The position numbers were made by a program, and so were the translations under genes. Under the pieces are notes generated by a model that saw only the letters and a program-made list of their open reading frames with translations, did not search any database and was not told where the DNA came from. This document shows, piece by piece, positions 3,529-58,240 of a stretch of 64,000 nt of DNA. Numbering within the stretch: position 1 is the first letter of the stretch; each line of letters begins with the position of its first letter. The stretch lies in the NCBI GenBank assembly GCA_028868715.1, contig JAGWUB010000001.1, forward strand, positions 53,480 to 117,479, given 5' to 3'. Source of the stretch: Patescibacteria group bacterium (GTDB lineage: Bacteria > Patescibacteriota > Minisyncoccia > Phycocordibacterales > UBA9973).

Positions 3529-3688
3529 AATAATTATATAGTTATGCTTAAAATTTCATAAAGTTAGTTTATATGTTAGTAATTATACTAGATATAATAG
3601 AAACCAAACTAGGTAATGTGGATAACTATAAATAGTGAACGTCAGTATTGCATTAAAATAATACCCGTGATATACTACTTTAGTAATG

Positions 3689-3716
3689 AGTCCTGTCGAA
3701 ACAGGGCTTTTTTATT
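3689..3716 (+). terminator. Intrinsic-terminator-like hairpin in the nusA leader (gtcctgtcgaaacagggc followed by a T-run); possible attenuator.
   Basis: A perfect 7-bp stem is followed by tttttta on the plus strand, about 25 nt before the nusA ATG. The only upstream gene is on the opposite strand and points away. Confidence 0.4.
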
Positions 3717-3739
3717 TAAAAACTTAATAAAATAACAAT

Positions 3740-4912
3740 ATGTTAGACTTAAAAACATTCAAATCAGCTCTGGAACAGCTGGAAGAAGACCGCAAGATTC
3801 CAAAAGAAAAGATATTAGACGCCATAGAACAAGCCATGGCTGCTGCTTACAAGAAAGATTACGGCAAAAAAGGACAAATCATCCGCGCCAAATTTGATCT
3901 TGATACTGGTAAGACAAATTTCTTTCAAGTAAAAATAGTAGTTGACGAAACTATTGCAAATATAGATCAAGAAAGTGCCAGCGAAGGTGCACATAAAAAG
4001 CACAAAGAAGAATATTCTCTAAAAGATGGTGATGAGCGAGTGCATTTCAATGCTGAGCATCACATCATGCTGGAAGATGCGAAAAAAATTAAAAAGGGGG
4101 TGGAATTAAATGATGAAATCATTTTTCCATTAGAAGCCCGAGATGACTATGGCCGAATTGCCGCCCAGACAGCCAAGCAAGTAATCATTCAAAAAATTCG
4201 TGAAGCCGAACGAGTTTCTATTATCGATGAATATGGCACCAAAGAAGGAGAAATAATCTCTGGAATAGTCCAAAAAGTGGAAAGAGGAAATATTTATATT
4301 GATTTCAACCGCGCTACTGGAATATTGCCAGCCGAGGAACAAATTCCTGGGGAATTTTGGGAGAGAGGCCGACGTGTGCGCGCCTACTTATATTCTGTAG
4401 AAGACACTCAAAGAGGAATCAATTTACGTCTGTCTCGTACTCATCCAAAATTTATTGAAAAGCTTTTTGCGATGGAGGCGCCAGAAATCCAAAATGGAAT
4501 TGTAGAAATAAAATCAATCGCCAGAGAAGCAGGCGCGCGTTCTAAGATTGCGGTACATTCAAACGATGAACATATCGATGCTGTCGGCTCATGCGTCGGC
4601 CAAAAAGGCACCCGTGTAAATACAATCACTCAAGAATTGGGCGGAGAAAAAATAGATATTATTCCTTGGTCTGCTGATCCGAAAATTTTTGTGACGAATT
4701 CTATCTCTCCAGCAAAAGTTATCTCTATTGAAATAGACGAAAAGGAACACAAGGCTATTGTAGAAGTAGCGGATGACCAACTATCACTGGCTATCGGCAA
4801 AGGCGGACAAAATGTACGCTTGGCTGCCAAGCTCACTGGCTGGAGGATAGACATCAAGGGCGACGGTAAGATGGTAACTTCAGATGAAGTAGTTGAAAAA
4901 ATGGAAGAATAG
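3740..4912 (+). CDS. nusA: Transcription termination/antitermination factor NusA.
   Basis: S1 domain plus two KH domains (GQKGTRVNTITQELGGEKIDII; LAIGKGGQNVRLAAKLTGWRIDI). Length is 390 aa. Confidence 0.9.
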   Translation: MLDLKTFKSALEQLEEDRKIPKEKILDAIEQAMAAAYKKDYGKKGQIIRAKFDLDTGKTNFFQVKIVVDETIANIDQESASEGAHKKHKEEYSLKDGDERVHFNAEHHIMLEDAKKIKKGVELNDEIIFPLEARDDYGRIAAQTAKQVIIQKIREAERVSIIDEYGTKEGEIISGIVQKVERGNIYIDFNRATGILPAEEQIPGEFWERGRRVRAYLYSVEDTQRGINLRLSRTHPKFIEKLFAMEAPEIQNGIVEIKSIAREAGARSKIAVHSNDEHIDAVGSCVGQKGTRVNTITQELGGEKIDIIPWSADPKIFVTNSISPAKVISIEIDEKEHKAIVEVADDQLSLAIGKGGQNVRLAAKLTGWRIDIKGDGKMVTSDEVVEKMEE

Positions 4913-4927
4913 AATTATACTAGCGGT

Positions 4928-5512
4928 ATGGCAAATATAAATCAAAAACCTTCAAAATACATGCTAAATTTATTGCATGTACTTCCAGCATTTGTGGAAG
5001 AAAAACCAGATGTGCTCAATGTCATTGTCGAAAACAATGCCGGCTCACTCAATAAATACGAGATCATAACCGAGTCAGGTCAACTAAAGCTCGACCGGGT
5101 TGGATATTCTCCAATGGTTTATCCATTTGCCTACGGAGCGATCCCACAAACTTGGGATTTTGACAACGATCCGCTCGACATCGTGATCGCAAATGTTACC
5201 GAGCAATTTGTCCCAGGATCTTTGGTAGAAGTTAGAATAATTGGAATGATGAAGTTTGAAGATGATGGTGAAGTAGATGATAAGATAATCGGTGTGGTAA
5301 ATGATGACAAGAGAAACAACCACATAAAAACCATAGATGACTTAGGAGAATATTTTAAAATTGAAACAAAATATTTTTGGGAGAAATACAAAGAATTGAA
5401 AAAGGCCGGCACTGGCATCACCAAAGGATTCTTTGACCAAGCCGAAGCCATCAAGATAGTGCAGGAATGTGAACAAAGATACAAAGATATATACTTGAAA
5501 AAATTTGAATAG
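4928..5512 (+). CDS. ppa: Inorganic pyrophosphatase, family I.
   Basis: DNDPLDIVI and PQTWDFD motifs match family I PPase. Length is 194 aa. Confidence 0.8.
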   Translation: MANINQKPSKYMLNLLHVLPAFVEEKPDVLNVIVENNAGSLNKYEIITESGQLKLDRVGYSPMVYPFAYGAIPQTWDFDNDPLDIVIANVTEQFVPGSLVEVRIIGMMKFEDDGEVDDKIIGVVNDDKRNNHIKTIDDLGEYFKIETKYFWEKYKELKKAGTGITKGFFDQAEAIKIVQECEQRYKDIYLKKFE

Positions 5513-5537
5513 CTAAATTTAATAAATAATAAAAAGT

Positions 5538-5651
5538 ATGGAACAAGAACAAGAACCAATAGAATACAAATCTAACGGGGCGCTTGTCGGTCTGGTAATT
5601 ATCGTTATCATTCTCGTAATCGGATTGATCTATCTCATACTAAAAAAATAA
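5538..5651 (+). CDS. Small hydrophobic peptide of 37 aa with a single TM helix, hypothetical.
   Basis: ATG at 5538, sequence MEQEQEPIEYKSNGALVGLVIIVIILVIGLIYLILKK, stop at 5649-5651. It lies in the ppa-tig gap and there is no homology evidence. Confidence 0.2.
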   Translation: MEQEQEPIEYKSNGALVGLVIIVIILVIGLIYLILKK

Positions 5652-5658
5652 AATAAAT

Positions 5659-6708
5659 ATGAAAGTAACCGTAAAAAAACTACCAAAAAGCGAGATAGAA
5701 ATCGATGGAGAATTAGACGCTGAACAATTTGAAACTTATTTCAAACAGGCGCTAAAGCTACTAAGTGAAAACTTAAAATTAGATGGATTTAGAAAAGGTA
5801 AAATACCGGAGGCTGTTTTACTGCAAACTATTCCGGAAATGATGATATTAGAAAAGATGGCCGAGCTCGCCCTAAATGAGCATTACCCTAAAATTTTAGA
5901 AGATGAAAAAATTGATGCCATTAGTAGACCGGAAATTTCTATCACTAAATTGGCTCGCAAAAATCCACTAGAATTTAAGATCAAAACTGCTGTTTTGCCG
6001 GAGGTCAAACTTCCCGACTATAAAAATATAGCTAAAAAAATAATCGCGAATATTACTGAAGCTGAAAAAAATATTGTAGTGACAGATGAAGACTTGGAAA
6101 ATACAATAATGGATATCCGAAAATCTCGCGCACCTAAAATACATATGAAGGAAGGCGCCGACAAAACCTCAGGTGAAGAAATAAAGGAAGAATTACCAGA
6201 ATTTAATGACGAGTTTGTCAGAGCGCTTGGGCCATTTAAAGATGTAGCTGATTTTAAAGAAAAATTAAGTGTCAATATCAAGCTAGAGAAGGAAAATGCG
6301 CAGAAGGAAAAAACCAGATTAAATATTATTGAAAAAATAATTGAGGATAGCACTATTGAAGTGCCAGAAATTTTGATTGAAATTGAAATAGATAAAATCT
6401 TGCACCGCATGGAGTCTGACATCACTCAAATGGGTCTAAAGTTTGAAGACTACTTGAAGCATTTGAACAAAACAGTTGATGATTTAAAGAAAGAATTTAG
6501 AACTGATGGAGAGAAAAAAGCTAAGCTCGGACTTATTTTAAATGAGATTGCTAAAGCAGAAAAAATAGCTGTGGATGAAGAGCTACTCGCCAAAGAAGTC
6601 GCGCATATTCTGGAAATGTATAAAGATGCTGACCCAGAGCGAGCTAGAATGCATGCCGAAAATGTTCTCACTAACGAAAAAATCTTTCAATTTTTAGAGA
6701 GTCAGTAA
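5659..6708 (+). CDS. tig: Trigger factor, shortened form.
   Basis: The N-terminus MKVTVKKLPKSEIEIDGELDAEQFE...GFRKGKIP matches the ribosome-binding domain of trigger factor. It lies immediately upstream of clpP, in the conserved order. Confidence 0.8.
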   Translation: MKVTVKKLPKSEIEIDGELDAEQFETYFKQALKLLSENLKLDGFRKGKIPEAVLLQTIPEMMILEKMAELALNEHYPKILEDEKIDAISRPEISITKLARKNPLEFKIKTAVLPEVKLPDYKNIAKKIIANITEAEKNIVVTDEDLENTIMDIRKSRAPKIHMKEGADKTSGEEIKEELPEFNDEFVRALGPFKDVADFKEKLSVNIKLEKENAQKEKTRLNIIEKIIEDSTIEVPEILIEIEIDKILHRMESDITQMGLKFEDYLKHLNKTVDDLKKEFRTDGEKKAKLGLILNEIAKAEKIAVDEELLAKEVAHILEMYKDADPERARMHAENVLTNEKIFQFLESQ

Positions 6709-6745
6709 ATCTTGAAAAAACTCAAAAAAAGAGTATACTAGGGCT

Positions 6746-7351
6746 ATGTTAATCCCAACCGTAATTGAAAAAAGTCAGTTTGGAGAGCGCGCTTATGATA
6801 TTTACTCACGACTACTTCGTGAACGTATCATCTTTTTGAGTGGTCCGATAGACGACCACACGGCAAATATAGTCATTGCTCAGCTCCTATTCCTAGAATC
6901 TGAAGACTCCAAAAAGGATATCTATCTTTATGTAAATTCACCTGGTGGATCCGTAACCTCTACTTTAGCAGTAGTAGACACCATGAATCATGTACGTCCA
7001 GACATTGCTACTTTTTGTGTCGGCTTAGCAGCCTCTGGCGCAGCTATTATCCTATCCGCTGGTAAGAAAGGCAAAAGACATATCTTGCCAAATGCTGAAG
7101 TCATGATTCACCAACCTTTGGGTGGAGTAGAAGGCCAAGCTACAGACATAGCCATCACTGCAAAACATATACTAAAAACTAGAGATAATCTAAATAAAAT
7201 GCTTGCAAAAAATACTGGTAAATCTCTAGCCCAAATTGAAAAAGATGTAGAGCGAGATTTCTTCATGGATGCTGATGAAGCTAAAAAATATGGAATTATT
7301 GACGAAATCGTCACCAAATCCAAACTCCCAGAAAAAAAATCTAGTAATTAG
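6746..7351 (+). CDS. clpP: ATP-dependent Clp protease proteolytic subunit.
   Basis: [19 protein letters not shown]...[14 protein letters not shown]...MIHQP gives the Ser-His catalytic context typical of ClpP. Confidence 0.95.
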
Positions 7352-45932: not shown

Positions 45933-47930
45933 ATGAGCTTCGAAAATAAAACAACTCAAAAATTAATTTCCGCTCTCTTAATTATTTTGACTCTGATACC
46001 GACTGTTTTAATCTTTGTGCCAAAACAAGTAACTGCGCAGGGGCTCCCTGTGACCGCTTTTTGCCCCACCGCAACAAACCCTCAAGCTGTGTGTGCAAGT
46101 GAGGGCACTTCGTTTTGGCATAAAATTCTAACAGGTATGGTGGTTGGTACTAGTGCTACAACTGCAACAAATACAACTAAAGAAATAGTCACTGAGGCTT
46201 TAAAAGAAATCGTCCGAGTCGCGGCGCAAAGGTTGCTCGCGCAAATGACTCAAAGTACCGTAAACTGGATAAATACTGGCTTTCACGGAGCGCCACTTTT
46301 TGTGGAAAATCCTGGATCTTTCTTTGCTGATATAGGTAAAACCGAACTAAGAGACTTCGTAAATATAGTAGGCTATGACAGTGTTAATCAGCCTTTTGGT
46401 AAAAGCTTTGCTTTAAATGCTATAAATAGTTACCGAAGCACCTTTGCCAACAATGCCCAATACTCTTTTAGTAAAGTCACAAATGATCCTGTTTTGCTCA
46501 ATCACTTGAGGACAAATTTTAGCACCGGTGGTTGGGATGCATTTTTAATAAATAGTCAATTCCCTCAAAACAATTACCTCGGGTCTCAAATGATATATAC
46601 CGATGAACTGGCTAGAAGGTTGAGTGGCACAAATCCGACTCAAACAGATATAATCAAACAAACCTTGGCTCAAGGACAAGGATTCCTATCTCCACAGAAA
46701 TGTTTGACTAACCCTGATTATAATAATCTCAATAATCAATTTCATAAACCAACTTTCAAGTGTTCACCACCGACAGAAGATTGTAGTAATGACCCCACTG
46801 GCAACTGTGTTAGTCGTGAAATTATACGATGCAAGAGGGAAGAGTCTACTTGGGATGCAACCAATTTTTGTCCAAACAACCCAGCAGACGGAACTCCCGG
46901 CTTAGTAAATACTACTCCTGGATCAGTGGTAGCTTCATCTATAATGAAAGCGGTAAATGTGCCCATCGACAAAGCAACATTGGCTGGGACAGTGGGTAAT
47001 AGTTTGACTGATGGCTTGTCCGCTATTTTTGATGCCTTACTAAATAAACTAGTCTCTTCTGGATTAAATGCAATTACAAATCCAACGCACAACACAAACA
47101 GTGCTAATAATTCTACAAACAACGTAGCTGGCACAGGCTTTGACTGGACTGGAGCGGGGCAAACAGTAGCGCTTGGCACATTTAAAACAGATGTCCAAAC
47201 AGCAATAAACAGCGCCAACCAAGAGCTTAAATTGATAGACAATACTGATACAAATACTCCTGGAATTTTACAAATATTTAACCAAATTTGGCCAAAAACC
47301 GGAGAACTAGATATGTGCTTACCGGGACCAAACATTGGATGGGAAAATAGAGTAGATACAGACATACAAAATTCAAATGCGAATCCAACAACAATAGCTC
47401 CCGTAATAACTTCATTTAAAACATGGGTAACTAATAAGATGAGGGCAGAACTTCCAGACTCAAAAAACTTTTTGAGTACGGTTAATTCTATTGCCGAAGT
47501 AAATAAACAAGCGACTGACTTAAACAATAGGGAAAGTACAATAATAAATACTTTAACAAAACTTCAATCAATACAGGATGAATTGAGTGGTATAACCACT
47601 CAGCCAGACGCAGGCTCGGGGAGCGACACAGCTTTGACAAATTTGAAGCAAAGATATGATGGAATGCTGGTAGACCTATCTAGTCCTATCACTGTAGCTG
47701 ATATGCGAAATAAATTGGCTGACGCCAAAGACAACTTAACCAACTTGGGCACGCTCATTACACAATGCACCACAGAGCGAACTGCAAAAGGCTGGGCAAA
47801 CCCCGGAGGAGCAGATAGTGTGTTTAATAATTCCAGTACCGAAAAAAATGTATTTTGTAATTCGTACCCAAGTGTGCCAGTATCTTGTGATGCAGTTTTC
47901 CAGACTAGTGCAGAAGATTACAAAAAATAA
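45933..47930 (+). CDS. Large secreted or membrane-anchored protein (665 aa), hypothetical; a T4SS-associated surface component.
   Basis: N-terminal signal/TM LISALLIILTLIPTVLIFVP. It is Cys-containing and Thr/Asn-rich. No enzymatic motif. Confidence 0.5.
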   Translation: MSFENKTTQKLISALLIILTLIPTVLIFVPKQVTAQGLPVTAFCPTATNPQAVCASEGTSFWHKILTGMVVGTSATTATNTTKEIVTEALKEIVRVAAQRLLAQMTQSTVNWINTGFHGAPLFVENPGSFFADIGKTELRDFVNIVGYDSVNQPFGKSFALNAINSYRSTFANNAQYSFSKVTNDPVLLNHLRTNFSTGGWDAFLINSQFPQNNYLGSQMIYTDELARRLSGTNPTQTDIIKQTLAQGQGFLSPQKCLTNPDYNNLNNQFHKPTFKCSPPTEDCSNDPTGNCVSREIIRCKREESTWDATNFCPNNPADGTPGLVNTTPGSVVASSIMKAVNVPIDKATLAGTVGNSLTDGLSAIFDALLNKLVSSGLNAITNPTHNTNSANNSTNNVAGTGFDWTGAGQTVALGTFKTDVQTAINSANQELKLIDNTDTNTPGILQIFNQIWPKTGELDMCLPGPNIGWENRVDTDIQNSNANPTTIAPVITSFKTWVTNKMRAELPDSKNFLSTVNSIAEVNKQATDLNNRESTIINTLTKLQSIQDELSGITTQPDAGSGSDTALTNLKQRYDGMLVDLSSPITVADMRNKLADAKDNLTNLGTLITQCTTERTAKGWANPGGADSVFNNSSTEKNVFCNSYPSVPVSCDAVFQTSAEDYKK

Positions 47931-47935
47931 TTTAA

Positions 47936-50374
47936 ATGCGAAAAATACTTAAAAAATTAATTACGGCTGGTTTCATAGCCATCATACTAGTTGGACTGTT
48001 TAGCTCGCCAGCTAAAACTCAAGCGCAGACGGGATCACCAACAAAAGGAACCTGCACTATAACAGATACTAGTGAACGCCCTCCTATTGTTTCTAATGTA
48101 CCAAATCAAACATTTGATCAATGTACTGGACTAAAACCAACAACAGGTAATGTTGCTTGGGCAGCAGATGGTGGTGGAGCAACCGTAAATGCAGCACCAG
48201 CGGGTCCGACAGGAACTTGTACTACAGTTGATACAAGAGACACTGTAGATAAAACTCAATACCCAACTGGAGCTACAACCGTAGCAAAAACTACTCAAGC
48301 AGATTGTACAAAAATGAACCAACCTGGCCTAGTGGCAACTTGGACAGCAGATGCGACTGACAGCACTAGTAATATGTTTAAGCAGTGCTCACTTGATGGA
48401 AATTTTAGTATTGATAAATGTACCGTGTATGTTCTTTATATTATTTTTTATGAATTACCTGCTTACATTTTATGGTTAACGGCCTATATATTTAACGCCT
48501 CCATACCTTTAACTATCGGCACTGTTTTGTATCATAATAATTTTTTACCGGAAGCATGGAGAATCGTACGAGACTTTTCAAACATATTCTTTATCTTGGT
48601 GTTGCTATACGTGGCAATCAAAATGATTTTAGGGTTCGGTGGAGGAGAAGTAAAGAAAATGGTTGTGAACGTCGTGATCGCTGCCCTTCTCATCAACTTC
48701 AGCATGTTTATGACTGAAGTAGTAATTGATTCTTCAAATATTTTAGCTTTAATTTTTTATAATAAAATTACTGTGAATCCTGCTCAAACCAGTACCGAGA
48801 GTGATACCCCATATTACCCAACTTTAAATAAAGACAAAACGGCTATTGAAGAAAAGGATATTGCGGGCGGGATAGTAAAAGGTTTTGATATAACCAAATT
48901 TCTTAGCCCTGATTCAGTAACTCTACAAGTGGGCGACAAGCCTGCGGGTAGCGCTATGGCCACTGCGAAAAACACAGCGACTGGTACTGTGATCGGATCA
49001 ATTTTTGGACCCCTAGGTGGAGTCGCTGGGGGAGCTATCGGTTATTTATTTTCTGCTTCGGCATCAGGGAATCAAACTGGTCTTCAAGTAGCCATAATCT
49101 TCACGGCGTGCGCTGTGTTCCTAATGGCATCTTGGGCTTTTCTAATAGCCGGATTTGCATTTTTGGGAAGATTAATTGAACTTTGGATTTTAATTATCTT
49201 TTCACCTTTTGCTTTAATGTCTTTTTCTGTACCAAGATTAAAAAGTATAAAATTTTTAGGTTGGGATGCTTGGCTAGAGCGCTTGATGCATACTGCTTTT
49301 ATGGCGCCAATTTTTATGTTTTTCTTGTTACTGATATCAAAACTGGTACAAATAGATATCTTGGGCGGACTAACAAATACAGATAAGCCACCTTCAATTG
49401 CTCATGCATTACTTATCCTTGCAATTCCAGCAATAATATATCTGACCATGCTTTACAAAGCCACTGAGTATGCCAAAAAAAATGCGGGCGAATTTGGGGC
49501 AGCGGTAGTCAAGTATGGAGAAATGGCGGCAGTGGCTGTAGGTGGGTTGGCATTGGGTGCAGCGTCTGGAGGAACATCGATGGCAGCTACGGCAACTATT
49601 GGTAGAGCTGGTGCTGCTGCTGCTAATTCAGGGTGGGCTAAAAAATGGGAATCAAAAGGGTGGGGTGGTGAATACTTTAGGAGAGCAGCTACAGCTGTTG
49701 GCTCATCAAGCTTCGATGTTCGTGGAATAAAAATAGGAGGTAAAGCTTTGGGAACAACTATAGGAGCTGGTGAAGGAAGAAAAGATGGATTTACAGAAAG
49801 AAGGAAAAAACAAGTAGAAAATAGACAAAAGAGAGCTAAGGATCTTGAGGTTGGAGAGGATGAGCCATTAAAACAAAAGTTAAATAATTCAGAAAATGAC
49901 TTACAGCAAATGATGAATAAGGTTGCAAGAGATTTTGAAATAATCGATAAAGACTTGGAAGGTCAAAGACAAAAGAAAAACGATGCTGTAGTTGGGTCAA
50001 TTGAAGAAGCGACAGCTTCGAGAGAAATTGAGAGATTAAATAATATAAAGAGAGATATAAATGATGGCAAGGCCTTTAATTATGTAGATAGTGCTGGCGG
50101 TATTCATAATGTAAGTTCTACAACTGTAATAGGGGGAGATAATAATGGAAAAACTATAAAACAAATGCAAAGAGAAGTAATTCCTGAACAAAAAAATGAT
50201 GTAACAAAAGAAAATAGAGCAAGAAAATGGACTTACGCAGATACCACGCGAAGTAAGTTTGGGCAGGCAAAAAGTTTTGTGTTCAGTGGTGGAACACATA
50301 GTTTTGCAGGAGCACATGAAGCTGCTCACGCCATAATAATGGAAGCAAAATTGCCAGACAATGTGGCAAAATAA
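47936..50374 (+). CDS. VirB6/TrbL-like polytopic membrane protein (812 aa). It has an N-terminal secreted Thr-rich domain, then ~6-8 TM helices, then a charged C-terminal region.
   Basis: Signal peptide. A hydrophobic core YVLYIIFYELPAYILWLTAYIFNASIPLTIGTVL...FFILVLLYVAIKMILGF...VVIAALLINFSMFMTEVVIDSS...IIFTACAVFLMASWAFLIAGFAFLGRLIELWILIIFSPFALM is typical of TrbL/VirB6-type channel subunits. The call rests on architecture and context only. Confidence 0.5.
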   Translation: MRKILKKLITAGFIAIILVGLFSSPAKTQAQTGSPTKGTCTITDTSERPPIVSNVPNQTFDQCTGLKPTTGNVAWAADGGGATVNAAPAGPTGTCTTVDTRDTVDKTQYPTGATTVAKTTQADCTKMNQPGLVATWTADATDSTSNMFKQCSLDGNFSIDKCTVYVLYIIFYELPAYILWLTAYIFNASIPLTIGTVLYHNNFLPEAWRIVRDFSNIFFILVLLYVAIKMILGFGGGEVKKMVVNVVIAALLINFSMFMTEVVIDSSNILALIFYNKITVNPAQTSTESDTPYYPTLNKDKTAIEEKDIAGGIVKGFDITKFLSPDSVTLQVGDKPAGSAMATAKNTATGTVIGSIFGPLGGVAGGAIGYLFSASASGNQTGLQVAIIFTACAVFLMASWAFLIAGFAFLGRLIELWILIIFSPFALMSFSVPRLKSIKFLGWDAWLERLMHTAFMAPIFMFFLLLISKLVQIDILGGLTNTDKPPSIAHALLILAIPAIIYLTMLYKATEYAKKNAGEFGAAVVKYGEMAAVAVGGLALGAASGGTSMAATATIGRAGAAAANSGWAKKWESKGWGGEYFRRAATAVGSSSFDVRGIKIGGKALGTTIGAGEGRKDGFTERRKKQVENRQKRAKDLEVGEDEPLKQKLNNSENDLQQMMNKVARDFEIIDKDLEGQRQKKNDAVVGSIEEATASREIERLNNIKRDINDGKAFNYVDSAGGIHNVSSTTVIGGDNNGKTIKQMQREVIPEQKNDVTKENRARKWTYADTTRSKFGQAKSFVFSGGTHSFAGAHEAAHAIIMEAKLPDNVAK

Positions 50375-51612: not shown

Positions 51613-52038
51613 ATGCAGTTTAAAGTTCCACAATTTTTAGAAATAGAAGACAAAATTTTTGGCCCATTTACTTTTCGGGAGTTTGTTTACTTGGTGGGTG
51701 GGGGAGGAATGTGCTTTGTAGTCTATAAATTACTGGGGCTTGTCTGGGGAGCGATACCTATCTTGGCCATTGCTGGATTTGCCGGAATGCTTACTTTTTA
51801 CCGCCCAAACAATAAACCCTTTATAGACATGCTGGAAGCTGGTTTTAAGTATGGGTTTCAAAGTAAACTGTATATCTGGAAAAGACGTCAGATTAAAGTT
51901 GCCAAAAATAAAGCTCCAGTGGTGGTTGAGGACAAAAATATAGCCATGAGAGAAAATGTAAAGTTAAGTGGTAATAAATTGCGAGACTTAGCTTGGAGTT
52001 TAGATGTTTTGGATTTAAAAAAGGAAGGTAATAATTAG
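51613..52038 (+). CDS. PrgI/VirB3-like small two-TM membrane protein, sited directly upstream of VirB4.
   Basis: 141 aa with two adjacent TM helices FVYLVGGGGMCFVVYKLLGLVWGAIPILAIAGFAGMLTFY. The position immediately 5' of a VirB4 homolog is typical of PrgI/VirB3-family proteins. Confidence 0.45.
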   Translation: MQFKVPQFLEIEDKIFGPFTFREFVYLVGGGGMCFVVYKLLGLVWGAIPILAIAGFAGMLTFYRPNNKPFIDMLEAGFKYGFQSKLYIWKRRQIKVAKNKAPVVVEDKNIAMRENVKLSGNKLRDLAWSLDVLDLKKEGNN

Positions 52039-52106
52039 ACCTTAGGCACTAGGCTCTAGCGAGAAAGCTAAAGCCTAACGCCTAGAGCCTAGAGCCCTAG
52101 AAAAAT

Positions 52107-52748
52107 ATGGCATTAAATGCAAAAGCAACTCAAGAGTTTGTACCGATAAAGGAGGTGCGCGACGGAACCATCGTGTTAAAAGATGGTGGCCTGCGGGCTA
52201 TTGTCTTGGCTAATTCAGTCAATCTTTCTTTGAAATCTGATGATGAACAGCGAGCAACGATACTTCAATTTCAAAACTTTTTAAATACTTTAGACTTTGC
52301 TATCCAAATATCAGTGCAATCAAGAAGATTGGACATTCGTCCTTATCTTTTGCTGTTAGAAAATAGAATCAAAGTCCAAAATGAACCTCTTCTAAAAATA
52401 CAAACAAAGGAATATATAGAATTTGTCAGAAGCTTTACCGAGTCGGTAAATATAATGACCAAAACTTTTTTTATTGTGGTACCTTATACCCACACGGTAT
52501 TAAAATCAGATTCTGGGGTTTTGGGAAAACTATTCAAGAGAAGCAGTAAGGAAGAGAAAAAAATTGAAAAAGAGGAGGATTTTGAAGAAAAAAAATCCCA
52601 GCTAGAACAGAGAGTGGGGGTGATACAACAAGGCCTTAGCCGTTGTGGCATAAAATCAGCCAGATTGGGTACTGAAGAAGTAGTGGAAGTTTTTTATAAG
52701 GTTTTCAATCCCGGAGAAGTGGAAGGAAAAATTAAACTTGAACAATAA
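52107..52748 (+). CDS. VirB4/TraE-family ATPase, N-terminal domain, encoded as a separate ORF.
   Basis: ATQEFVPIKEVRDGTIVLKDGGLRAIVLANSVNLSLKSDDEQ matches the conserved N-terminus of Gram-positive-type VirB4 proteins (PrgJ/TcpF/Orf16-like). TAA at 52746-52748 is followed 2 nt later by the ATG of the next ORF. Confidence 0.6.
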   Translation: MALNAKATQEFVPIKEVRDGTIVLKDGGLRAIVLANSVNLSLKSDDEQRATILQFQNFLNTLDFAIQISVQSRRLDIRPYLLLLENRIKVQNEPLLKIQTKEYIEFVRSFTESVNIMTKTFFIVVPYTHTVLKSDSGVLGKLFKRSSKEEKKIEKEEDFEEKKSQLEQRVGVIQQGLSRCGIKSARLGTEEVVEVFYKVFNPGEVEGKIKLEQ

Positions 52749-52750
52749 TT

Positions 52751-54625
52751 ATGATGGATTTTTTTAAAAAATTATTTGGTGGAAAAAATGTGCGGCCGAG
52801 CTTGGACGCTAGGCACGCGGGTGATAGTGGTATGCAAGCCACGGTAATGCCCGTCTTGCCGGAAGAAATCTATGAATCAGCCAGCATAGAATTGCAAGAC
52901 ATCATCGCTCCATCAGCTCTTAAAATTGAATCGAAATCAATAAACCTAGGAGAAAAGATAGCTCGTACTTTTTTTATAATATCTTATCCGAGGTTTTTAA
53001 CTGATAACTGGTTTTCTCCAATAATTAATTTGGATAAAGTTTTTGATATCTCAATCTTCATTCATCCGATAGATACTTCGCTAGCGCTAAGACAGTTTCA
53101 GAAAAAGGTTGCTGAAGTGCAAAGTCAGATAAATGTTCGTGAGAAAAAGGGTATGGTGCGTGACCCAATGCTGGATACTGCTTATCAAGATTTAGAAGGA
53201 TTGCGTGACAATTTGATCCAAGCGCAAGAAAAAATGTTTGATATGGGTATATATATCACTATTTATGCCGACAACGAGATGGAGCTTTTCAAAGTTGAGA
53301 ATGAGATAAAATCAATGCTGGAGTCCAGACTCATATATATCAAACCGGCCCTTTTCCAACAAGAAGAAGGTTTTAAAAGTATCATTCCGATAAATACTGA
53401 CCTGTTAAATATTCACCAAAAATTAAATTCAGAGCCGTTATCCAGTATTTTTCCTTTTGTTTCTTTTGACCTAACTTCAGATACTGGTATCCTCTACGGA
53501 ATAAACAGGCACAACTCAAGTTTAGTTATTTTTGATAGATTTTCTTTGGAAAACTACAACTCGGTAACCTTTGCTAAGTCTGGATCAGGAAAATCTTATG
53601 CGACTAAGCTGGAAATTTTGAGATCTCTGATGTTTGATATTGATGTCATGGTCATAGACCCAGAGCGGGAATATGAATTCTTGTCTGAAGCCGTCGGTGG
53701 AAGATATTTTAATATTTCTCTTTCAAGTGACCACCATATGAACCCTTTTGACCTGCCTATCCCTCGTGAGGATGAAACTGCCGAAGATGTGCTCCGATCA
53801 AATATTATAAACCTAGTCGGACTGTTTAGATTAATGCTCGGAGGACTAACCCCCGAAGAAGATTCACTGGTTGATCGCGCTATCTCAGAAACCTATGCGA
53901 TGAAAGATATAACTCCAGAATCAGATTTTTCAAACATTGAACCTCCACTGCTTTCTGACTTTGAAATGGTTCTCTCGGGCATGGAAGGAGCCGACTCTGT
54001 AGTTTCTAGGTTGGCAAAATATACTCATGGTTCTTGGGCAACATTTTTGAATAGACCAAGTAATGTAGATATTAATAAAAAATTCGTAGTATTTTCTATC
54101 CGCGACATGGAAGACGAATTAAAGCCAGTGGCAATGTATATCATCATGCATTTTATCTGGAATGCTATCCGTAAAAATCTAAAGAAGCGTCTCCTGGTGG
54201 TGGACGAAGCTTGGTGGATGATGAAATCCGAAGACACAGCATCCTTCTTGTATTCTATGGCAAAAAGAGGCAGAAAATACTATTTAGGACTTGCTACTAT
54301 CACCCAAGATGCGGCGGACTTTATGAAATCTCCCTATGGCATACCGATAGTTACCAACTCTTCTATACAAATTCTTTTAAAACAATCGCCAACCACCATA
54401 GACATACTACAAAAAACATTTAATTTAACGGATGAAGAAAAATATTTACTTTTGGAGTCTGGGGTAGGTGAAGGTATTTTCTTTGCAGGCCTAAAACATG
54501 TGGCTATCAAAGTCGTGGCCTCATATACGGAAGACCAAATCATAACTTCTGACCCATCACAAATATTGTTAAACCGAAAAGCAAAGGAAGATTATGAAAC
54601 AGCGGTAAAGGACGGGAAACTTTAA
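52751..54625 (+). CDS. VirB4-family type IV secretion ATPase, central and C-terminal ATPase domains.
   Basis: Walker A FAKSGSGKSYATK, Walker B LLVVDEAWWMM, and a C-terminal region typical of VirB4/TrsE/CagE. Confidence 0.85.
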   Translation: MMDFFKKLFGGKNVRPSLDARHAGDSGMQATVMPVLPEEIYESASIELQDIIAPSALKIESKSINLGEKIARTFFIISYPRFLTDNWFSPIINLDKVFDISIFIHPIDTSLALRQFQKKVAEVQSQINVREKKGMVRDPMLDTAYQDLEGLRDNLIQAQEKMFDMGIYITIYADNEMELFKVENEIKSMLESRLIYIKPALFQQEEGFKSIIPINTDLLNIHQKLNSEPLSSIFPFVSFDLTSDTGILYGINRHNSSLVIFDRFSLENYNSVTFAKSGSGKSYATKLEILRSLMFDIDVMVIDPEREYEFLSEAVGGRYFNISLSSDHHMNPFDLPIPREDETAEDVLRSNIINLVGLFRLMLGGLTPEEDSLVDRAISETYAMKDITPESDFSNIEPPLLSDFEMVLSGMEGADSVVSRLAKYTHGSWATFLNRPSNVDINKKFVVFSIRDMEDELKPVAMYIIMHFIWNAIRKNLKKRLLVVDEAWWMMKSEDTASFLYSMAKRGRKYYLGLATITQDAADFMKSPYGIPIVTNSSIQILLKQSPTTIDILQKTFNLTDEEKYLLLESGVGEGIFFAGLKHVAIKVVASYTEDQIITSDPSQILLNRKAKEDYETAVKDGKL

Positions 54626-54679: not shown

Positions 54680-55666
54680 ATGAAGTTAAAAGTTTTATCA
54701 TATTTAGGAATCGGATTGGCAATACTTGTAATAATAGTATCTATTTCACCGTTCCAAACGCGGGCAGCCGTCTCACCGAGCGCTATCTCTGTAGATATAA
54801 TGCCACTTAATCCCGCTGCGGGAGAAAGTACGACGATTGCCTTGGGTAGTTTCGCTACTAATTTAGATAGTGTCTCAATATCTTGGTATGTAAATGGTAA
54901 AAAAGTTTCTGCTGGAATTGGAATGAAAACATTTTCGGTCAACGCACCCGCAACTGGCTCATCGACTACGGTTCGAGCTGTAGTGTCTTTGGTAGATGGG
55001 GATATAGAAAAAAAAGTAGTGATAAGCCCCAATGTGATGGTCTTGCTATATCAAGCAACTGACTCATATGTACCGCCATTTTATCGCGGTAAGGCATTGC
55101 CGACAGTTGGAAGTGACATAAAGGTGGTAGCTATGCCTGAAGCAAAAAATATTTCTCCTCAAAATATGCTTTACGCTTGGAAAAGAAATTACACAAATGA
55201 TGCGACTGGATCTGGCTATGGCAAGAATTCTCTTACTTATACGAATGATTACTTATCAAACTCGGACAACGTTTCAGTGACAGTTTCTTCAATCGATGGA
55301 AAATATTCATCAGAGGCAAGCCTTGATATCGGACCAACCCAACCGAAAATATCTTTTTATAAAAACGACACTTTGCTCGGGACATTGTGGGAACAAGCCC
55401 TCACAGATGGACACATGGTAAAAGGTGATGAAGTGATGGTGGCAGAACCATATTTTATTTCACCGAAAGAATTGTGGAATCCAAGCTTGGTGTGGAATTG
55501 GTATATTAATGATAGCCTGACGGATAATACATCAAGCATTCATAAAAACTGGCTACCAATAAAGATAGAAGGGGGATCAACAGGAACTTCTGCTTTGAGA
55601 TTAGATATTAGTAGTAACGACCAAATTTTAGAAACAGCTAGTAAGCAAATAAATGTCACATTTTAA
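54680..55666 (+). CDS. Secreted hypothetical protein with repeated Ig-like beta-rich segments; T4SS-associated.
   Basis: Signal peptide MKLKVLSYLGIGLAILVIIVSISPFQTRA. No catalytic motif. Confidence 0.45.
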   Translation: MKLKVLSYLGIGLAILVIIVSISPFQTRAAVSPSAISVDIMPLNPAAGESTTIALGSFATNLDSVSISWYVNGKKVSAGIGMKTFSVNAPATGSSTTVRAVVSLVDGDIEKKVVISPNVMVLLYQATDSYVPPFYRGKALPTVGSDIKVVAMPEAKNISPQNMLYAWKRNYTNDATGSGYGKNSLTYTNDYLSNSDNVSVTVSSIDGKYSSEASLDIGPTQPKISFYKNDTLLGTLWEQALTDGHMVKGDEVMVAEPYFISPKELWNPSLVWNWYINDSLTDNTSSIHKNWLPIKIEGGSTGTSALRLDISSNDQILETASKQINVTF

Positions 55667-56825
55667 AATGAAAAAATATTTACCATACGTTTTAATACTA
55701 ATTATTATAGTGGGATTTTTTGGTTCAGCATTGAAAGTTAGTGCAGAAACATATCAACAATGCGTAGAAAGAACTAAAAACTTACCTATAGATACTAACG
55801 TAGATCCGTGTGCAGGATTACAACCAGACCCAGGAACTGTAATAAACAATAATGTCACCCCAGCAACCCCAAAAACACCAGACCCAGCAAGCTACCACCT
55901 CTTGCAACCACTCCCAGGTGTAAGTGGAGATTTTAGCCCTGGGCCGACAAATGCTCTAGGTAGTTATTTGAATTCAATGATAACTCTATTTATCGGTCTG
56001 TGTGCTGTGGTAGCGGTGGTGATGATTGTGATAGGTGGCATAGAGTGGTCTACAAGTGAACTCATTTCTAAAAAAGAAGCAGCCAAGGAGCGGATTTGGG
56101 GTGCTGTTTTAGGGCTTCTCTTGGCTCTGGGTTCATATGCTCTTTTATATACAATAAATCCTGATTTACTAAATACTAATGTGGATATTGGGGATGTGAC
56201 AATACAATCGACAATTGAGCAACAGATTAAAGACCTTGTAGATATAAGAACCTCGGGAATCCAAACTATTGATGGAAAACCAGGAGCTAAAATAAACTTT
56301 AAAGCAGAGGCTTGTCCGGTGGCGTTAGCTGTTGAGGGAACAACAGGAGTGAAAGCTGCATACCTTTTAGCAATATTTGACCAAGAGTCAAGTAGTGGGA
56401 GTATGGCTTTTTCAGGGTGCTCATCAAGTAACGCAAGTTGTGTTAAATGGCGACCTGGTACTGGAGATGAGCAAAAATTAAATCAAATATTGGCCGCAAT
56501 CGGAAAAACTTCTCCAGTAAACGTATCACCTGGCGGTACAGCTGGTGGCGCCTATGGTGGGTGTATGGGATATATGCAAGTTTGTCCATCAGAATGGATT
56601 AGGGTTGGTGGGTTGGGTAAAAACCCTTGGAACTTAAACGATTCAATGACAGTAGCTGCAAATCTTTTAGTAAGAGAAAAGGGCTATAATCAAAACCCAG
56701 CACAATCTGTTTGTAAGTATTTCGGTAGTTGTGGTGGTGGTGGTCTAGTTAATTATCAAGCAAGTGTTCTACGTAAGGCTGCAGCATTTCAAGACAGGAT
56801 TAATAAAGGAGATTGTAGTGCCTAA
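55653..56825 (+). CDS. Fusion of a T4SS pilin-like (VirB2/TrbC-like) N-terminal module and a C-terminal lytic-transglycosylase (SLT, VirB1-like) domain.
   Basis: Signal peptide. A Pro/Thr linker follows, then two hydrophobic helices (MITLFIGLCAVVAVVMIVIGGIEW; IWGAVLGLLLALGSYALLY) in a pilin-like topology. The C-terminal SLT core is LAIFDQESSSGS...GCMGYMQVCPSEW, with the catalytic Glu in the ES motif and a GxMQ motif. Confidence 0.55.
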   Translation: MSHFKMKKYLPYVLILIIIVGFFGSALKVSAETYQQCVERTKNLPIDTNVDPCAGLQPDPGTVINNNVTPATPKTPDPASYHLLQPLPGVSGDFSPGPTNALGSYLNSMITLFIGLCAVVAVVMIVIGGIEWSTSELISKKEAAKERIWGAVLGLLLALGSYALLYTINPDLLNTNVDIGDVTIQSTIEQQIKDLVDIRTSGIQTIDGKPGAKINFKAEACPVALAVEGTTGVKAAYLLAIFDQESSSGSMAFSGCSSSNASCVKWRPGTGDEQKLNQILAAIGKTSPVNVSPGGTAGGAYGGCMGYMQVCPSEWIRVGGLGKNPWNLNDSMTVAANLLVREKGYNQNPAQSVCKYFGSCGGGGLVNYQASVLRKAAAFQDRINKGDCSA

Positions 56826-56836
56826 ATGATAAAAAT

Positions 56837-58240
56837 ATGCCAAAAAGAAACTTTATACTTTTAATAACCATCTTAGCTCTCATAATAATCGGGCTATTTG
56901 GATTTTTATATTTACGCTCGGGAACAACTCCTGTGGAGGTTGTCAGCAATGGCACAAATTTTCTTTCTATGTTTAATCCATTTAGAAGCAATCCTTCTAC
57001 TCCTGGAACCACTCCACCTGAAACAAACACACCTGGCGAAGATCAAGGTACTCAGAGCGGGGAGGTGGTAGCAGAAAACTTGAAAAAAGTTTCCACCATG
57101 CCTATCGCTGGGTTCACAATATTTTCCAAAGAAAGATTAAAGGAAGTTCCAGTAGTAGTGCCACCTCCAAGCACTACTGACAGTACAACCACACCAGCAA
57201 CAACCACGACACCTACTACTACAACTCCAGCAACCCCTCCATCAGCGGCTCCAGTTAAAAAAGCGCCAGTGGTTAAGCCTGTTCCACCAAAAACTGAGTT
57301 TGCCGAAGCTGTCAGGTATGTAGAGAGAGCTACTGGAAATATATATCAAACTTTTGTAGATAAAATAGAAGAAAAAAAGTTTTCTCAAACAGTTATACCT
57401 AAAATATATGATGCCTATTTTGGCAATCAAGGAATGTCTGTAGTCATGCGACACTTAAAATTAGGGGATGCAACTATAGAAACTTTCTATGGTCTTCTGC
57501 CGAAAGAGAAATTTGGCGAAGATCTAACTAATAATGAAATAAAGGGATCATTCTTACCAGACAATGTTAAAGACATTAGCCTATCGCCAGACGCTTCAAA
57601 AATATTTTACTTATTAAACGTAGGAAATTCTGCGGTTGGTACAATTTTAAATTTAGCAGATGGCAAAAAAACTCAAATTTTTAATTCTGTTTTTTCAGAG
57701 TGGAATTCCAACTGGGGAAGTGCCAATACAATTACTCTGACTACAAAACCTTCAGGAGCCGTGCCTGGATATATGTATGCGATTAATGTAGGCACTAAGA
57801 ATTTCAGCAATGTACTCGGAAACGTAAATGGATTAACCACGCTGATGAGCCCAAGTGGTAAATTGGTCTTGGTAGGCAATGGATCTTTGTCATTATATAT
57901 CTACCATACAGACACAAAAGCATTTGACCAGCTTGGAGTAAATACTCTACCTGAAAAATGTACCTGGAATAAAATGAGTGATGCTGTCTATTGTGCTGTG
58001 CCGACATTTATTACTGGGGCAACTTATCCAGATGATTGGTATCGTGGAGAAATATCATTCTCTGACCAAATTTGGAAAATAAATATAAAAGATGGAAACA
58101 CTAAGATGATCGCGGATCCACTCGCAATAACCAACCCGGAAGATATTGATGGTATTAAGCTCGCCGTGGATAACAATGAAAACTATTTATTTTTTGTAAA
58201 TAAAAAAGACTCCTTTCTTTGGGAGCTATCTCTAAAATAA
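56837..58240 (+). CDS. Bitopic membrane protein with a Pro/Thr-rich linker and a beta-rich C-terminal domain; the last gene of the T4SS-like block.
   Basis: N-terminal TM ILLITILALIIIGLFGFLYL and a linker PPSTTDSTTTPATTTTPTTTTPATPPSAAP. The C-terminal domain is unrecognised. Confidence 0.45.
   Translation: MPKRNFILLITILALIIIGLFGFLYLRSGTTPVEVVSNGTNFLSMFNPFRSNPSTPGTTPPETNTPGEDQGTQSGEVVAENLKKVSTMPIAGFTIFSKERLKEVPVVVPPPSTTDSTTTPATTTTPTTTTPATPPSAAPVKKAPVVKPVPPKTEFAEAVRYVERATGNIYQTFVDKIEEKKFSQTVIPKIYDAYFGNQGMSVVMRHLKLGDATIETFYGLLPKEKFGEDLTNNEIKGSFLPDNVKDISLSPDASKIFYLLNVGNSAVGTILNLADGKKTQIFNSVFSEWNSNWGSANTITLTTKPSGAVPGYMYAINVGTKNFSNVLGNVNGLTTLMSPSGKLVLVGNGSLSLYIYHTDTKAFDQLGVNTLPEKCTWNKMSDAVYCAVPTFITGATYPDDWYRGEISFSDQIWKINIKDGNTKMIADPLAITNPEDIDGIKLAVDNNENYLFFVNKKDSFLWELSLK

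What the first reader, a model, noticed from the sequence alone, without database searches (positions are those of the whole stretch)
52107..54625. VirB4 ATPase encoded as two adjacent ORFs (N-domain 213 aa plus ATPase 624 aa)
The conserved VirB4 N-terminal domain (PIKEVRDGTIVLKDGGLRAIV...) ends at a TAA at 52746-52748. The ATPase body restarts at an ATG two nucleotides later in another frame. The sequence at the junction reads GAACAATAATTATGATGG. This is either a genuine split gene, a programmed frameshift, or a sequencing or decay artefact. All other genes in the block look intact.
Basis: seen in the sequence. Interest (0 to 1): 0.5.

Follow-up and report, generated by a model that had tools for sequence, protein, structure and literature searches.

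The report
Conserved two-gene VirB4 (TrsD plus ATPase)
The two adjacent reading frames are real, separate, conserved genes: a small TrsD-like protein matching the first part of the VirB4 secretion ATPase, then a VirB4 that lacks that part, an arrangement already described for Patescibacteria and some Gram-positive plasmids.

Summary
ORF1 (52107-52748, 213 aa) ends at TAA, and ORF2 (52751-54625, 624 aa) starts 2 nt later in the -1 frame.

It is not a frameshift, a decaying gene or an assembly error:
- Three independent assemblies reproduce the junction exactly.
- None of 81 related loci (80 are species representatives) has a fused gene. In 78 of them a ~212-aa gene is followed by a separate ~610-aa VirB4. 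The spacer is 1-590 nt and all three relative frames occur. In one locus the small gene is inverted.
- More than 7,900 homologues of ORF1 exist, and the best 120 are all 211-216 aa.
- Both genes are under strong purifying selection.

ORF1 and ORF2 line up end to end on full-length VirB4 profiles. ORF1's predicted fold matches only TrwK/VirB4 of plasmid R388.

The window is a Paceibacteria/Nomurabacteria-like chromosome. The type IV secretion (T4SS) block sits next to yidC, dnaA and dnaN. A 2025 paper (PMC12102498) already reports TrsD, a remote homologue of the VirB4 N-terminus, as the most abundant T4SS component of Patescibacteria, usually next to virB4 and essential in one cultured strain.

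Verdict: already known, low interest. What remains open is TrsD's function and whether the two proteins bind each other.

The parts
51613..52038 (+). PrgI family (VirB3-like) small membrane protein, 141 aa, directly upstream of ORF1
   Evidence: Pfam PF12666 PrgI, 1.7e-8. The order PrgI, small gene, VirB4 is the same in L001, in Bacillota plasmids and in the exact-match contigs.
52107..52748 (+). ORF1: TrsD-like / Pfam 'TraC-like' (PF26593) protein, 213 aa. It corresponds to the first ~185-230 residues of unsplit monoderm VirB4 proteins.
   Evidence: NCBIfam: VirB4_plasma model positions 102-234 (1.1e-10), CD1110 positions 2-119, TrsD/TraD positions 15-143. More than 7,955 homologues; the best 120 are 211-216 aa. 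The best 150 of 2,105 cluster representatives are 102-443 aa and none is ~800 aa. AF2 model pLDDT 87.1; the top 14 PDB fold matches are all TrwK/VirB4. hhalign against pSK41-type TraD gives E=2.1e-5 over nearly the full length.
52746..52753 (+). Junction: TAA stop of ORF1, 2-nt spacer (TT), ATG of ORF2 in the -1 frame
   Evidence: TGA at 52739-41 closes ORF2's frame upstream. The junction is identical in three independent assemblies. The A/T-rich context AACAATAATT-ATG resembles other starts in this genome, which has no Shine-Dalgarno sequences.
52751..54625 (+). ORF2: VirB4-type T4SS ATPase lacking the TrsD-equivalent N-terminal segment, 624 aa. Walker A (AKSGSGKSY) is at 53573-53599 and Walker B (LLVVDEAW) at 54191-54214.
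   Evidence: NCBIfam CD1110 VirB4, 1.4e-109, model positions 184-733 of 752, above the cut-off. Pfam P-loop_TraG and AAA_10. PDB 4AG5 VirB4 C-terminal domain, 1.6e-38, and TrwK. Residues 52-580 align with 228-772 of a 796-aa PrgJ-like VirB4. Motif coordinates.
54680..55666 (+). 328-aa gene of the T4SS block with no family hit; conserved at the same position in relatives
   Evidence: No Pfam hit. A 328-aa gene follows VirB4 in L001 as well.
55653..56825 (+). 390-aa protein with a T4SS-pilin-like segment and a weak lytic-transglycosylase-like C-terminal part
   Evidence: Pfam T4SS_pilin 6.9e-5 and SLT_2 0.0089, both below their cut-offs. The L001 counterpart carries T4SS_pilin (weak) plus VanY.
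56837..58240 (+). 467-aa last gene of the block, no family hit, followed by jag, yidC, dnaA and dnaN
   Evidence: A 437-aa gene sits at the same position in L001.

Best explanation
ORF1 and ORF2 are two autonomous, co-oriented genes of the chromosomal, origin-proximal T4SS of a Paceibacteria/Nomurabacteria-like Patescibacterium. ORF1 is a TrsD-like protein that corresponds to the first segment of the VirB4 N-terminal domain. ORF2 is a VirB4 ATPase that lacks exactly that segment.

Shown here: the two-gene arrangement is ancestral and under selection in this clade. It is not a frameshift or an error. Together the two products cover an unsplit VirB4 end to end.

Inferred: each is translated separately. 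In this window ORF2 probably starts by termination-reinitiation or by leader-independent initiation at the A/T-rich TAA-TT-ATG junction, because the genome has no Shine-Dalgarno sequences. The two polypeptides then associate non-covalently to rebuild a complete VirB4 N-terminal domain. In the R388 T4SS, as I recall it, that domain anchors the ATPase hexamer to VirB3 (here PrgI) and to the inner-membrane complex.

The break falls in a flexible, poorly conserved stretch: the ORF1 tail has low pLDDT, and the first ~30-45 residues of ORF2 are variable.
For: 1. Colinearity. ORF1 maps to VirB4_plasma model positions 102-234 and CD1110 positions 2-119. ORF2 maps to CD1110 positions 184-733. An artificial ORF1+ORF2 fusion aligns to VirB4_plasma in a stretch that runs through the junction (fusion residues 160-811 = model 235-893). 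It gains 42 bits over ORF2 alone (306.7 vs 264.7), and 12.6 bits on CD1110. ORF2 residue 52 aligns with residue 228 of a 796-aa PrgJ-like VirB4.
2. Fold. The ORF1 AF2 model has pLDDT 87.1 and pTM 0.75. Its 14 best PDB matches are all TrwK/VirB4 chains (probability 0.97-1.0, TM 0.36-0.57 normalised to the query). The next hits are unrelated, with probability at or below 0.21.
3. Conservation of the split. There are 0 fused genes in 81 related loci. In 78 loci the spacer is 1-590 nt (median 14) and the relative frames are 21/31/26. L001 has a 116-nt spacer. In L060 prgI and trsD are inverted and diverge from virB4.
4. Length conservation of homologues.
5. Purifying selection. For the nine closer relatives compared, pN is 0.09-0.13 for ORF1 and 0.07-0.09 for ORF2, against pS of 0.62-0.89.
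6. The junction is reproduced exactly in three assemblies.
7. The same PrgI, small protein, ~650-aa DUF87 ATPase layout occurs on Bacillota plasmids, and the small protein plus ATPase pair also on the pSK41/pGO1 type with annotated traD.
8. Literature. TrsD is a remote homologue of the VirB4 N-terminal portion and the most abundant T4SS component in Patescibacteria. 1,664 of 2,272 homologues lie next to virB4, and it is essential in Ca. Southlakia epibionticum ML1. The T4SS often lies near dnaA, dnaN and ksgA (PMC12102498). That matches this window.
Against: - Physical association of the two proteins was not tested.
- ORF1 scores only 25.2 bits on the NCBIfam TrsD model (cut-off 200), so it is a distant relative of the staphylococcal TrsD/TraD, not a member by that criterion.
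- hhalign of the ORF1 family against a single PrgJ-like VirB4 sequence was not significant (E=0.51), although it fell in the expected N-terminal region.
- The fold search does not report which TrwK residues are matched. Placing ORF1 in the N-terminal domain therefore rests on the HMM coordinates.
- The direction of evolution, fission of a full VirB4 or fusion of two older genes, is not resolved.
- The translation mechanism is inference only. 21 of 78 relatives have spacers longer than 50 nt, so coupling cannot be obligatory.
Confidence: 0.9

Rival explanations
1. Programmed -1 ribosomal frameshift (or another recoding event) joins ORF1 and ORF2 into one ~837-aa VirB4.
For: ORF2 is in the -1 frame, and the stop and start are only 2 nt apart. 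An A-rich run (GGAAAAATTAAAC) lies about 15 nt upstream.
Against: ORF2's frame has TGA at 52739-41, so only 52742-48 (ACAATAA) could serve, and that is not an X_XXY_YYZ site. Even if TGA were read as sense, the frame opens only at 52736. Relatives have spacers up to 590 nt and all three frame relations (21/31/26), with stops in between. One relative has the genes on opposite strands.
Confidence: 0.01
2. A sequencing or assembly indel, or recent pseudogenisation, broke a single VirB4 gene.
For: Adjacent ORFs in different frames are the classic signature of an indel. A few relatives do show damaged copies of the small gene: L025 is frameshifted twice and L033 has an in-frame stop.
Against: The junction and its flanks are identical (0-1 mismatch over 2-5 kb) in assemblies from three separate sequencing runs. 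The break point and the ~212-aa length are conserved across 78 related loci and more than 7,900 homologues. Synonymous sites are saturated while pN stays near 0.1. ORF2 starts with its own conserved N-terminus, of the MxxFxKLFGK type.
Confidence: 0.01
3. ORF1 is an independent accessory factor that only descends from, or resembles, the VirB4 N-terminus. It might be an assembly chaperone, a regulator, or a VirB3/VirB8-binding adaptor used at a different stoichiometry. In this reading it does not simply complete the VirB4 N-terminal domain.
For: [quoted passage not shown] In Gracilibacteria TrsD homologues are mostly not next to virB4. Spacers, and in one case orientation, allow independent expression. 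ORF1 evolves faster than ORF2: 51-85% versus 74-91% identity across the same loci.
Against: ORF2 lacks precisely the segment that ORF1 supplies, and the pair is colinear with unsplit VirB4. The two genes are adjacent and co-oriented in 78 of 81 loci. Simple complementation is the most economical reading.
Confidence: 0.08

Closest known systems
TrsD + VirB4 pair of the Patescibacteria (CPR) T4SS (Quinonero-Coronel et al. 2025, PMC12102498; essential T4SS of Ca. Southlakia epibionticum, Wang et al. 2023, PMC10633639)
   Same: Same clade: the homologues are named Nomurabacteria, Paceibacterota or Parcubacteria. Same gene order, PrgI/VirB3, TrsD-like, VirB4, then pilin-like genes. Same chromosomal position near dnaA, dnaN and ksgA. 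Same statement that the small protein is a remote homologue of the VirB4 N-terminal portion.
   Different: Nothing substantive. This report adds explicit colinearity (the cognate VirB4 lacks the TrsD-equivalent segment), a junction survey, and a fold match to TrwK.
TrsD/TraD + TrsE/TraE of staphylococcal conjugative plasmids pGO1/pSK41 (MPF_FATA, pGO1 subclass; NCBIfam NF041427)
   Same: A ~227-aa protein lies immediately upstream of a ~670-aa DUF87/VirB4 ATPase. The ORF1 family aligns to TraD over nearly its full length (hhalign E=2.1e-5). Intermediate Bacillota proteins such as pOM18 hit both the TrsD model and the VirB4 N-terminal models.
   Different: The sequence relationship is remote: 25.2 bits against a cut-off of 200. 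The plasmid systems are conjugative and carry a relaxase. The Patescibacteria locus is chromosomal, next to the origin, has pilin-like genes, and is thought to be repurposed.
Unsplit monoderm VirB4 ATPases (PrgJ of pCF10 type, CD1110 family, Mycoplasma ICE VirB4; 750-900 aa)
   Same: ORF1 plus ORF2 cover the same profile positions in the same order. PrgI precedes the ATPase.
   Different: Those are one polypeptide. Here the chain is divided after roughly the first 185-230 residues.
TrwK/VirB4 of plasmid R388 (PDB 7O41, 7O43, 8RTB, 8RTD)
   Same: It is the only structural match for ORF1, and ORF2's C-terminal domain matches it by sequence. It serves as the model for how the N-terminal domain docks onto VirB3 and the inner-membrane complex.
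   Different: It is a diderm MPF_T system with a single 823-aa chain. Identity to ORF1 in the structural alignment is only 13-17% for the better-superposed chains.

Membership tests
VirB4 family T4SS ATPase (ORF2) | Full-length hit above the curated cut-off to a VirB4 equivalog model | tested here: met
   NF045971 CD1110-family VirB4: 367.5 bits against a cut-off of 325, model positions 184-733 of 752. The first ~183 model positions are not covered.
VirB4 family T4SS ATPase (ORF2) | P-loop NTPase C-terminal domain with Walker A and Walker B motifs | tested here: met
   GSGKS at residues 278-282 and LLVVDEAW at 481-488. Pfam P-loop_TraG 1.4e-24. 4AG5 VirB4 C-terminal domain 1.6e-38.
VirB4 family T4SS ATPase (ORF2) | Genomic association with other T4SS components (VirB3/PrgI, VirB6-like, pilin or hydrolase) | tested here: met
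   PrgI at 51613-52038. A T4SS_pilin-like and SLT-like protein at 55653-56825. No VirB6, VirB8, VirD4 or relaxase was recognised by Pfam among the neighbours examined.
VirB4 family T4SS ATPase (ORF2) | ATP hydrolysis and requirement for secretion or assembly | not testable with these tools
   Needs biochemistry or genetics. T4SS genes are reported as essential in Ca. S. epibionticum (PMC10633639; PMC12102498).
TrsD/TraD family (NCBIfam NF041427; CONJscan MPF_FATA TrsD) (ORF1) | Score above the curated cut-off of the NCBIfam TrsD subfamily model | tested here: not met
   25.2 bits against a cut-off of 200, E=1.3e-5, model positions 15-143 of 201. ORF1 is a distant relative only. For comparison, the pSK41-type TraD scores 227.6 bits.
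TrsD/TraD family (NCBIfam NF041427; CONJscan MPF_FATA TrsD) (ORF1) | Hit to the CONJscan TrsD profile used in PMC12102498 to define Patescibacteria TrsD | not testable with these tools
   That profile is not among the libraries offered. The paper reports 2,272 hits in Patescibacteria, 1,664 of them next to virB4.
TrsD/TraD family (NCBIfam NF041427; CONJscan MPF_FATA TrsD) (ORF1) | Stand-alone ~200-230-aa protein encoded immediately upstream of a shortened (~600-670 aa) VirB4 | tested here: met
   213 aa, 2 nt upstream of the 624-aa VirB4. The same layout is found in 78 relatives and in pSK41-type plasmids.
TrsD/TraD family (NCBIfam NF041427; CONJscan MPF_FATA TrsD) (ORF1) | Homology over the full length to a bona fide TrsD/TraD | tested here: inconclusive
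   hhalign of the family alignment A1 against pSK41-type TraD: probability 76.7%, E=2.1e-5, 175 columns (8-204 against 32-217). Supportive but moderate.
Pfam PF26593 'TraC-like' (ORF1) | Hit to the Pfam model | tested here: inconclusive
   All close homologues, and the exact protein on other contigs, carry a precomputed PF26593 hit. The local Pfam scan of ORF1 did not return it, possibly because that copy lacks the model (untested).
VirB4 N-terminal domain, first segment (ORF1) | Sequence-profile match to the N-terminal positions of full-length VirB4 models, colinear with ORF2 | tested here: met
   VirB4_plasma positions 102-234 (1.1e-10) and CD1110 positions 2-119 (2.7e-4). The fusion alignment continues at position 235 through the junction.
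VirB4 N-terminal domain, first segment (ORF1) | Fold match to a solved VirB4 | tested here: met
   The top 14 Foldseek PDB hits are all TrwK/VirB4, probability 0.97-1.0, TM up to 0.57 normalised to the query. The tool does not report target residue ranges.

The most novel reading that the evidence does not exclude
The TrsD-like protein might be more than a detached piece of VirB4. It could be a separable adaptor whose independent expression lets the cell set its amount relative to the ATPase. That could gate docking of VirB4 hexamers onto PrgI/VirB3, or build an inner-membrane complex with a stoichiometry different from the R388 model. Variable spacers, hairpin or MITE-like inserts at the junction, and one inverted locus all permit such independent expression. 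If true, this would give the first function to TrsD, an essential protein of the Patescibacteria T4SS whose role is unknown.
Probability: 0.1. Interest if true: 0.4.

Novelty: already known. Interest (0 to 1): 0.1.

Why it matters
For annotation, the result is practical. This junction should not be flagged as a pseudogene, frameshift or assembly error, and the 213-aa gene should be named TrsD-like or VirB4 N-terminal-segment protein rather than hypothetical.

Biologically, the locus belongs to the origin-proximal T4SS that is widespread in Patescibacteria and is reported as essential for epibiotic growth in the one strain tested. TrsD is its most common component and still has no assigned function.

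The colinearity and fold evidence here sharpen one testable idea: TrsD completes the VirB4 N-terminal domain in trans. This does not change what is already published.

Tried and rejected
1. Slippery-site and frameshift reading. Rejected from the sequence (TGA at 52739-41, no heptamer) and from the frame statistics. Reading TGA as sense would extend ORF2's frame by only 5 codons.
2. Sequence search of ORF1 against the PDB. No meaningful hit; best E=0.55, to an unrelated phosphoprotein. A fold search was needed instead.
3. Pfam scan of ORF1. It returned only a sub-threshold, spurious Ufd2P_core hit.
4. hhalign of the ORF1 family against one full-length PrgJ-like VirB4. Not significant, E=0.51. 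The NCBIfam profiles were more informative.
5. AF2 prediction of an ORF1+ORF2 fusion with an alignment paired by genome from 10 relatives, meant to test whether ORF1 packs onto ORF2's N-terminal half.
6. Guglielmini et al. 2014 (PMC4027160) and the 2025 FEMS review (PMC12857230). Neither mentions TrsD in its main text. The explicit statement is in PMC12102498.
Full report
**Observation**

- ORF1 runs 52107-52748 (+, 213 aa) and stops at TAA 52746-48.
- After two bases (TT), ORF2 starts at ATG 52751 and runs to 54625 (624 aa).
- The quoted string GAACAATAATTATGATGG is at 52740-52757.
- ORF2 is in the -1 frame relative to ORF1.

**What the two ORFs are**

ORF2 is a VirB4-type ATPase.
- It scores 367.5 bits (E=1.4e-109) on the NCBIfam CD1110-family VirB4 model, above the curated cut-off of 325. 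It covers only model positions 184-733 of 752.
- It has Pfam P-loop_TraG and AAA_10 hits.
- Walker A (GSGKS) is at residues 278-282 and Walker B (LLVVDEAW) at 481-488.
- By sequence it matches the solved VirB4 C-terminal domain 4AG5 (1.6e-38) and TrwK of R388.

ORF1 corresponds to the missing N-terminal piece.
- It hits N-terminal positions of two full-length VirB4 models: VirB4_plasma 102-234 (1.1e-10) and CD1110 2-119 (2.7e-4).
- It also hits the stand-alone TrsD/TraD model, weakly (1.3e-5; 25.2 bits against a cut-off of 200).

**Colinearity**

- An artificial ORF1+ORF2 fusion scores higher than ORF2 alone on both full-length models: VirB4_plasma 306.7 against 264.7 bits, and CD1110 380.1 against 367.5 bits.
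- Its alignment to VirB4_plasma runs straight through the junction. Fusion residues 160-811 align to model positions 235-893, directly after the 102-234 covered by ORF1.
- ORF2 residues 52-580 align with residues 228-772 of a 796-aa PrgJ-like enterococcal VirB4.

The two products therefore tile an unsplit VirB4. ORF1 is the first part of the N-terminal domain. ORF2 keeps the remainder of that domain (about residues 45-240) and the ATPase domain.

**Fold**

- An AF2 model of ORF1, built from an 80-sequence alignment (A1), is confident: pLDDT 87.1, pTM 0.75.
- Against the PDB, its 14 best matches are all TrwK/VirB4 chains of the R388 T4SS. Probabilities are 0.97-1.0, TM normalised to the query is 0.36-0.57 (mostly 0.50-0.57), and 173-215 columns align.
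- The next hits are unrelated, with probability 0.21 or lower.
- The tool does not list the matched target residues. The N-terminal placement therefore rests on the HMM coordinates.

**Is the split real and old?**

- *Reproducibility.* The exact ORF1 protein occurs on contigs from three separate runs (SRR32006837, -38, -39). These contigs match the window with 0, 0 and 1 mismatches over 4.9, 3.4 and 2.0 kb, and the junction is identical.
The best 120 are 211-216 aa at 83-92% identity, are named Nomurabacteria, Paceibacterota or Parcubacteria, and carry Pfam PF26593 'TraC-like'.
- *Wider search.* In a library of 1.84 billion cluster representatives there are 2,105 hits. The best 150 (35-87% identity) are 102-443 aa, and none is a fused ~800-aa protein.
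- *Junction survey.* I examined 80 loci from species-representative genomes plus L001. No locus has a fused gene.
  - In 78 loci an intact ~212-aa gene is followed on the same strand by a separate ~603-628-aa VirB4.
  - The stop-to-ATG spacer is 1-590 nt, median 14. It is 7 nt or less in 37 loci and more than 50 nt in 21.
  - The relative frame is 0, 1 or 2 in 21, 31 and 26 loci.
- *Exceptions.* In L060, prgI and the small gene lie on the opposite strand and diverge from virB4. L025 is frameshifted twice, and L033 has an in-frame stop.
- *Selection.* For the nine closer relatives compared, non-synonymous differences are 0.09-0.13 (ORF1) and 0.07-0.09 (ORF2) per site. Synonymous sites are saturated at 0.62-0.89.

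**Frameshift and artefact readings**

Both are rejected.
- ORF2's frame is closed by TGA at 52739-41, leaving ACAATAA as the only overlap. That is not a slippery heptamer.
- Reading TGA as sense would add only five codons.
- No frame relationship is conserved among relatives.

**Expression**

This part is inference.
- None of 41 genes in the window has a Shine-Dalgarno match of 5 nt or more within 25 nt of its start. Starts are preceded by A/T-rich strings.
- ORF2's context, AACAATAATT-ATG, resembles those of other genes, for example 19297 and 51613.
- The 2-nt spacer fits termination-reinitiation. Relatives with long spacers, and the inverted locus, show that coupling is not required.

**Context**

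The window is a chromosomal segment of a Patescibacterium with about 38% GC.
- The T4SS block contains PrgI/VirB3-like (51613-52038), ORF1, ORF2, a 328-aa gene, a pilin-like plus hydrolase-like 390-aa gene, and a 467-aa gene.
- Downstream of the block lie jag (R3H), yidC, dnaA and dnaN.
- Upstream of the block, beyond several unassigned ORFs, lie ksgA and a UvrD-type helicase.

**Comparison with what is known**

- Quinonero-Coronel et al. 2025 (PMC12102498) describe this system.
  - It is the most abundant T4SS component in Patescibacteria: 2,272 homologues, 1,664 of them associated with virB4.
  - It has no assigned function and is listed as essential in Ca. Southlakia epibionticum ML1.
  - In Paceibacteria, virB4 lies near dnaA, dnaN and ksgA.
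- Wang et al. 2023 (PMC10633639) report that the T4SS of Ca. S. epibionticum is essential for epibiotic growth.
- The same two-gene layout exists on Bacillota plasmids:
  - pSK41/pGO1-type traD (227 aa) followed by a 670-aa DUF87 ATPase;
  - Peribacillus pOM18, B. thuringiensis BTB_502p and C. perfringens pJFP838A.
- The pOM18 small protein hits both the TrsD model and the VirB4 N-terminal models, so it bridges the two.
- The ORF1 family aligns to TraD over nearly its full length (hhalign E=2.1e-5).

**Verdict**

This is a genuine, ancestral, selected two-gene encoding of VirB4, that is, TrsD-like plus VirB4. It is already described in the literature, so it is ordinary for this clade.

Two questions remain open. 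The first is whether the two proteins reassemble a canonical VirB4 N-terminal domain at 1:1, which is my preferred mechanism and is inferred. The second is whether TrsD has a distinct adaptor or regulatory role. An AF2 test on a paired fusion alignment could not be run.

Noticed in passing
window 52045-52096 (PrgI to ORF1 spacer, 52039-52106): The spacer is 68 nt here but only 11 nt in L001. It holds an inverted repeat with 15-nt arms, 93% complementary, and a 22-nt loop. The RNA fold is -28.6 kcal/mol, z = -3.65, with 0 of 200 shuffles folding as well. It could be a small palindromic insert or a regulatory hairpin.
   Followed up: partly
L001 6640-6755: In this Nomurabacteria relative the ORF1-ORF2 spacer is 116 nt. 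It has an A/T-rich core flanked by ~20-nt terminal inverted repeats (TCCCGTTAGAAGC...GCTTCTAACGGGA). The fold is -44.2 kcal/mol, z = -5.6. It looks like a MITE-like or palindromic element inserted exactly at the gene junction.
   Followed up: partly
whole window (41 long ORFs): No gene has a Shine-Dalgarno match of 5 nt or more within 25 nt of its start; starts sit in A/T-rich context. All 41 stops are TAA (28) or TAG (13), and none is TGA, although relatives do use TGA to end the ORF1 homologue (L009, L041, L042, L071).
   Followed up: partly
L060 2816-3881 (-) versus 3941-5797 (+): In Ca. Paceibacterota CTOTU14215, the prgI-like and trsD-like genes are inverted and diverge from virB4. This is either a real local inversion or a misassembly.
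   Followed up: partly
L025 3356-3993; L033 3338-3976: The TrsD-like gene is broken in these two MAGs. L025 has three frames in succession and L033 has an in-frame stop. These may be assembly indels or real pseudogenes.
   Followed up: no
window 55653-56825 versus L001 9637-10629: The pilin-like protein after VirB4 has a weak SLT_2 (lytic transglycosylase) C-terminal hit here. Its counterpart in a close relative carries VanY (a peptidase). The cell-wall hydrolase module may have been swapped. The gene also overlaps the preceding gene by 14 nt.
   Followed up: no
window 45933-50374: Two large ORFs (665 and 812 aa) with no Pfam hit lie upstream of the T4SS block, with two smaller unassigned ORFs (164 and 236 aa) between them and prgI. 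Large unannotated genes (983 and 949 aa) occupy the same position in L001. They may be lineage-specific T4SS or surface components.
   Followed up: no
L085 (Halobacterium hubeiense pSTJ001) 3566-7236: ORF1 also hits (6e-8) the N-terminal part of a 369-aa haloarchaeal plasmid protein. That protein lies directly upstream of an 853-aa ATPase annotated as 'TraM recognition domain-containing'. A split layout may therefore exist in archaeal conjugation-like systems too.
   Followed up: no
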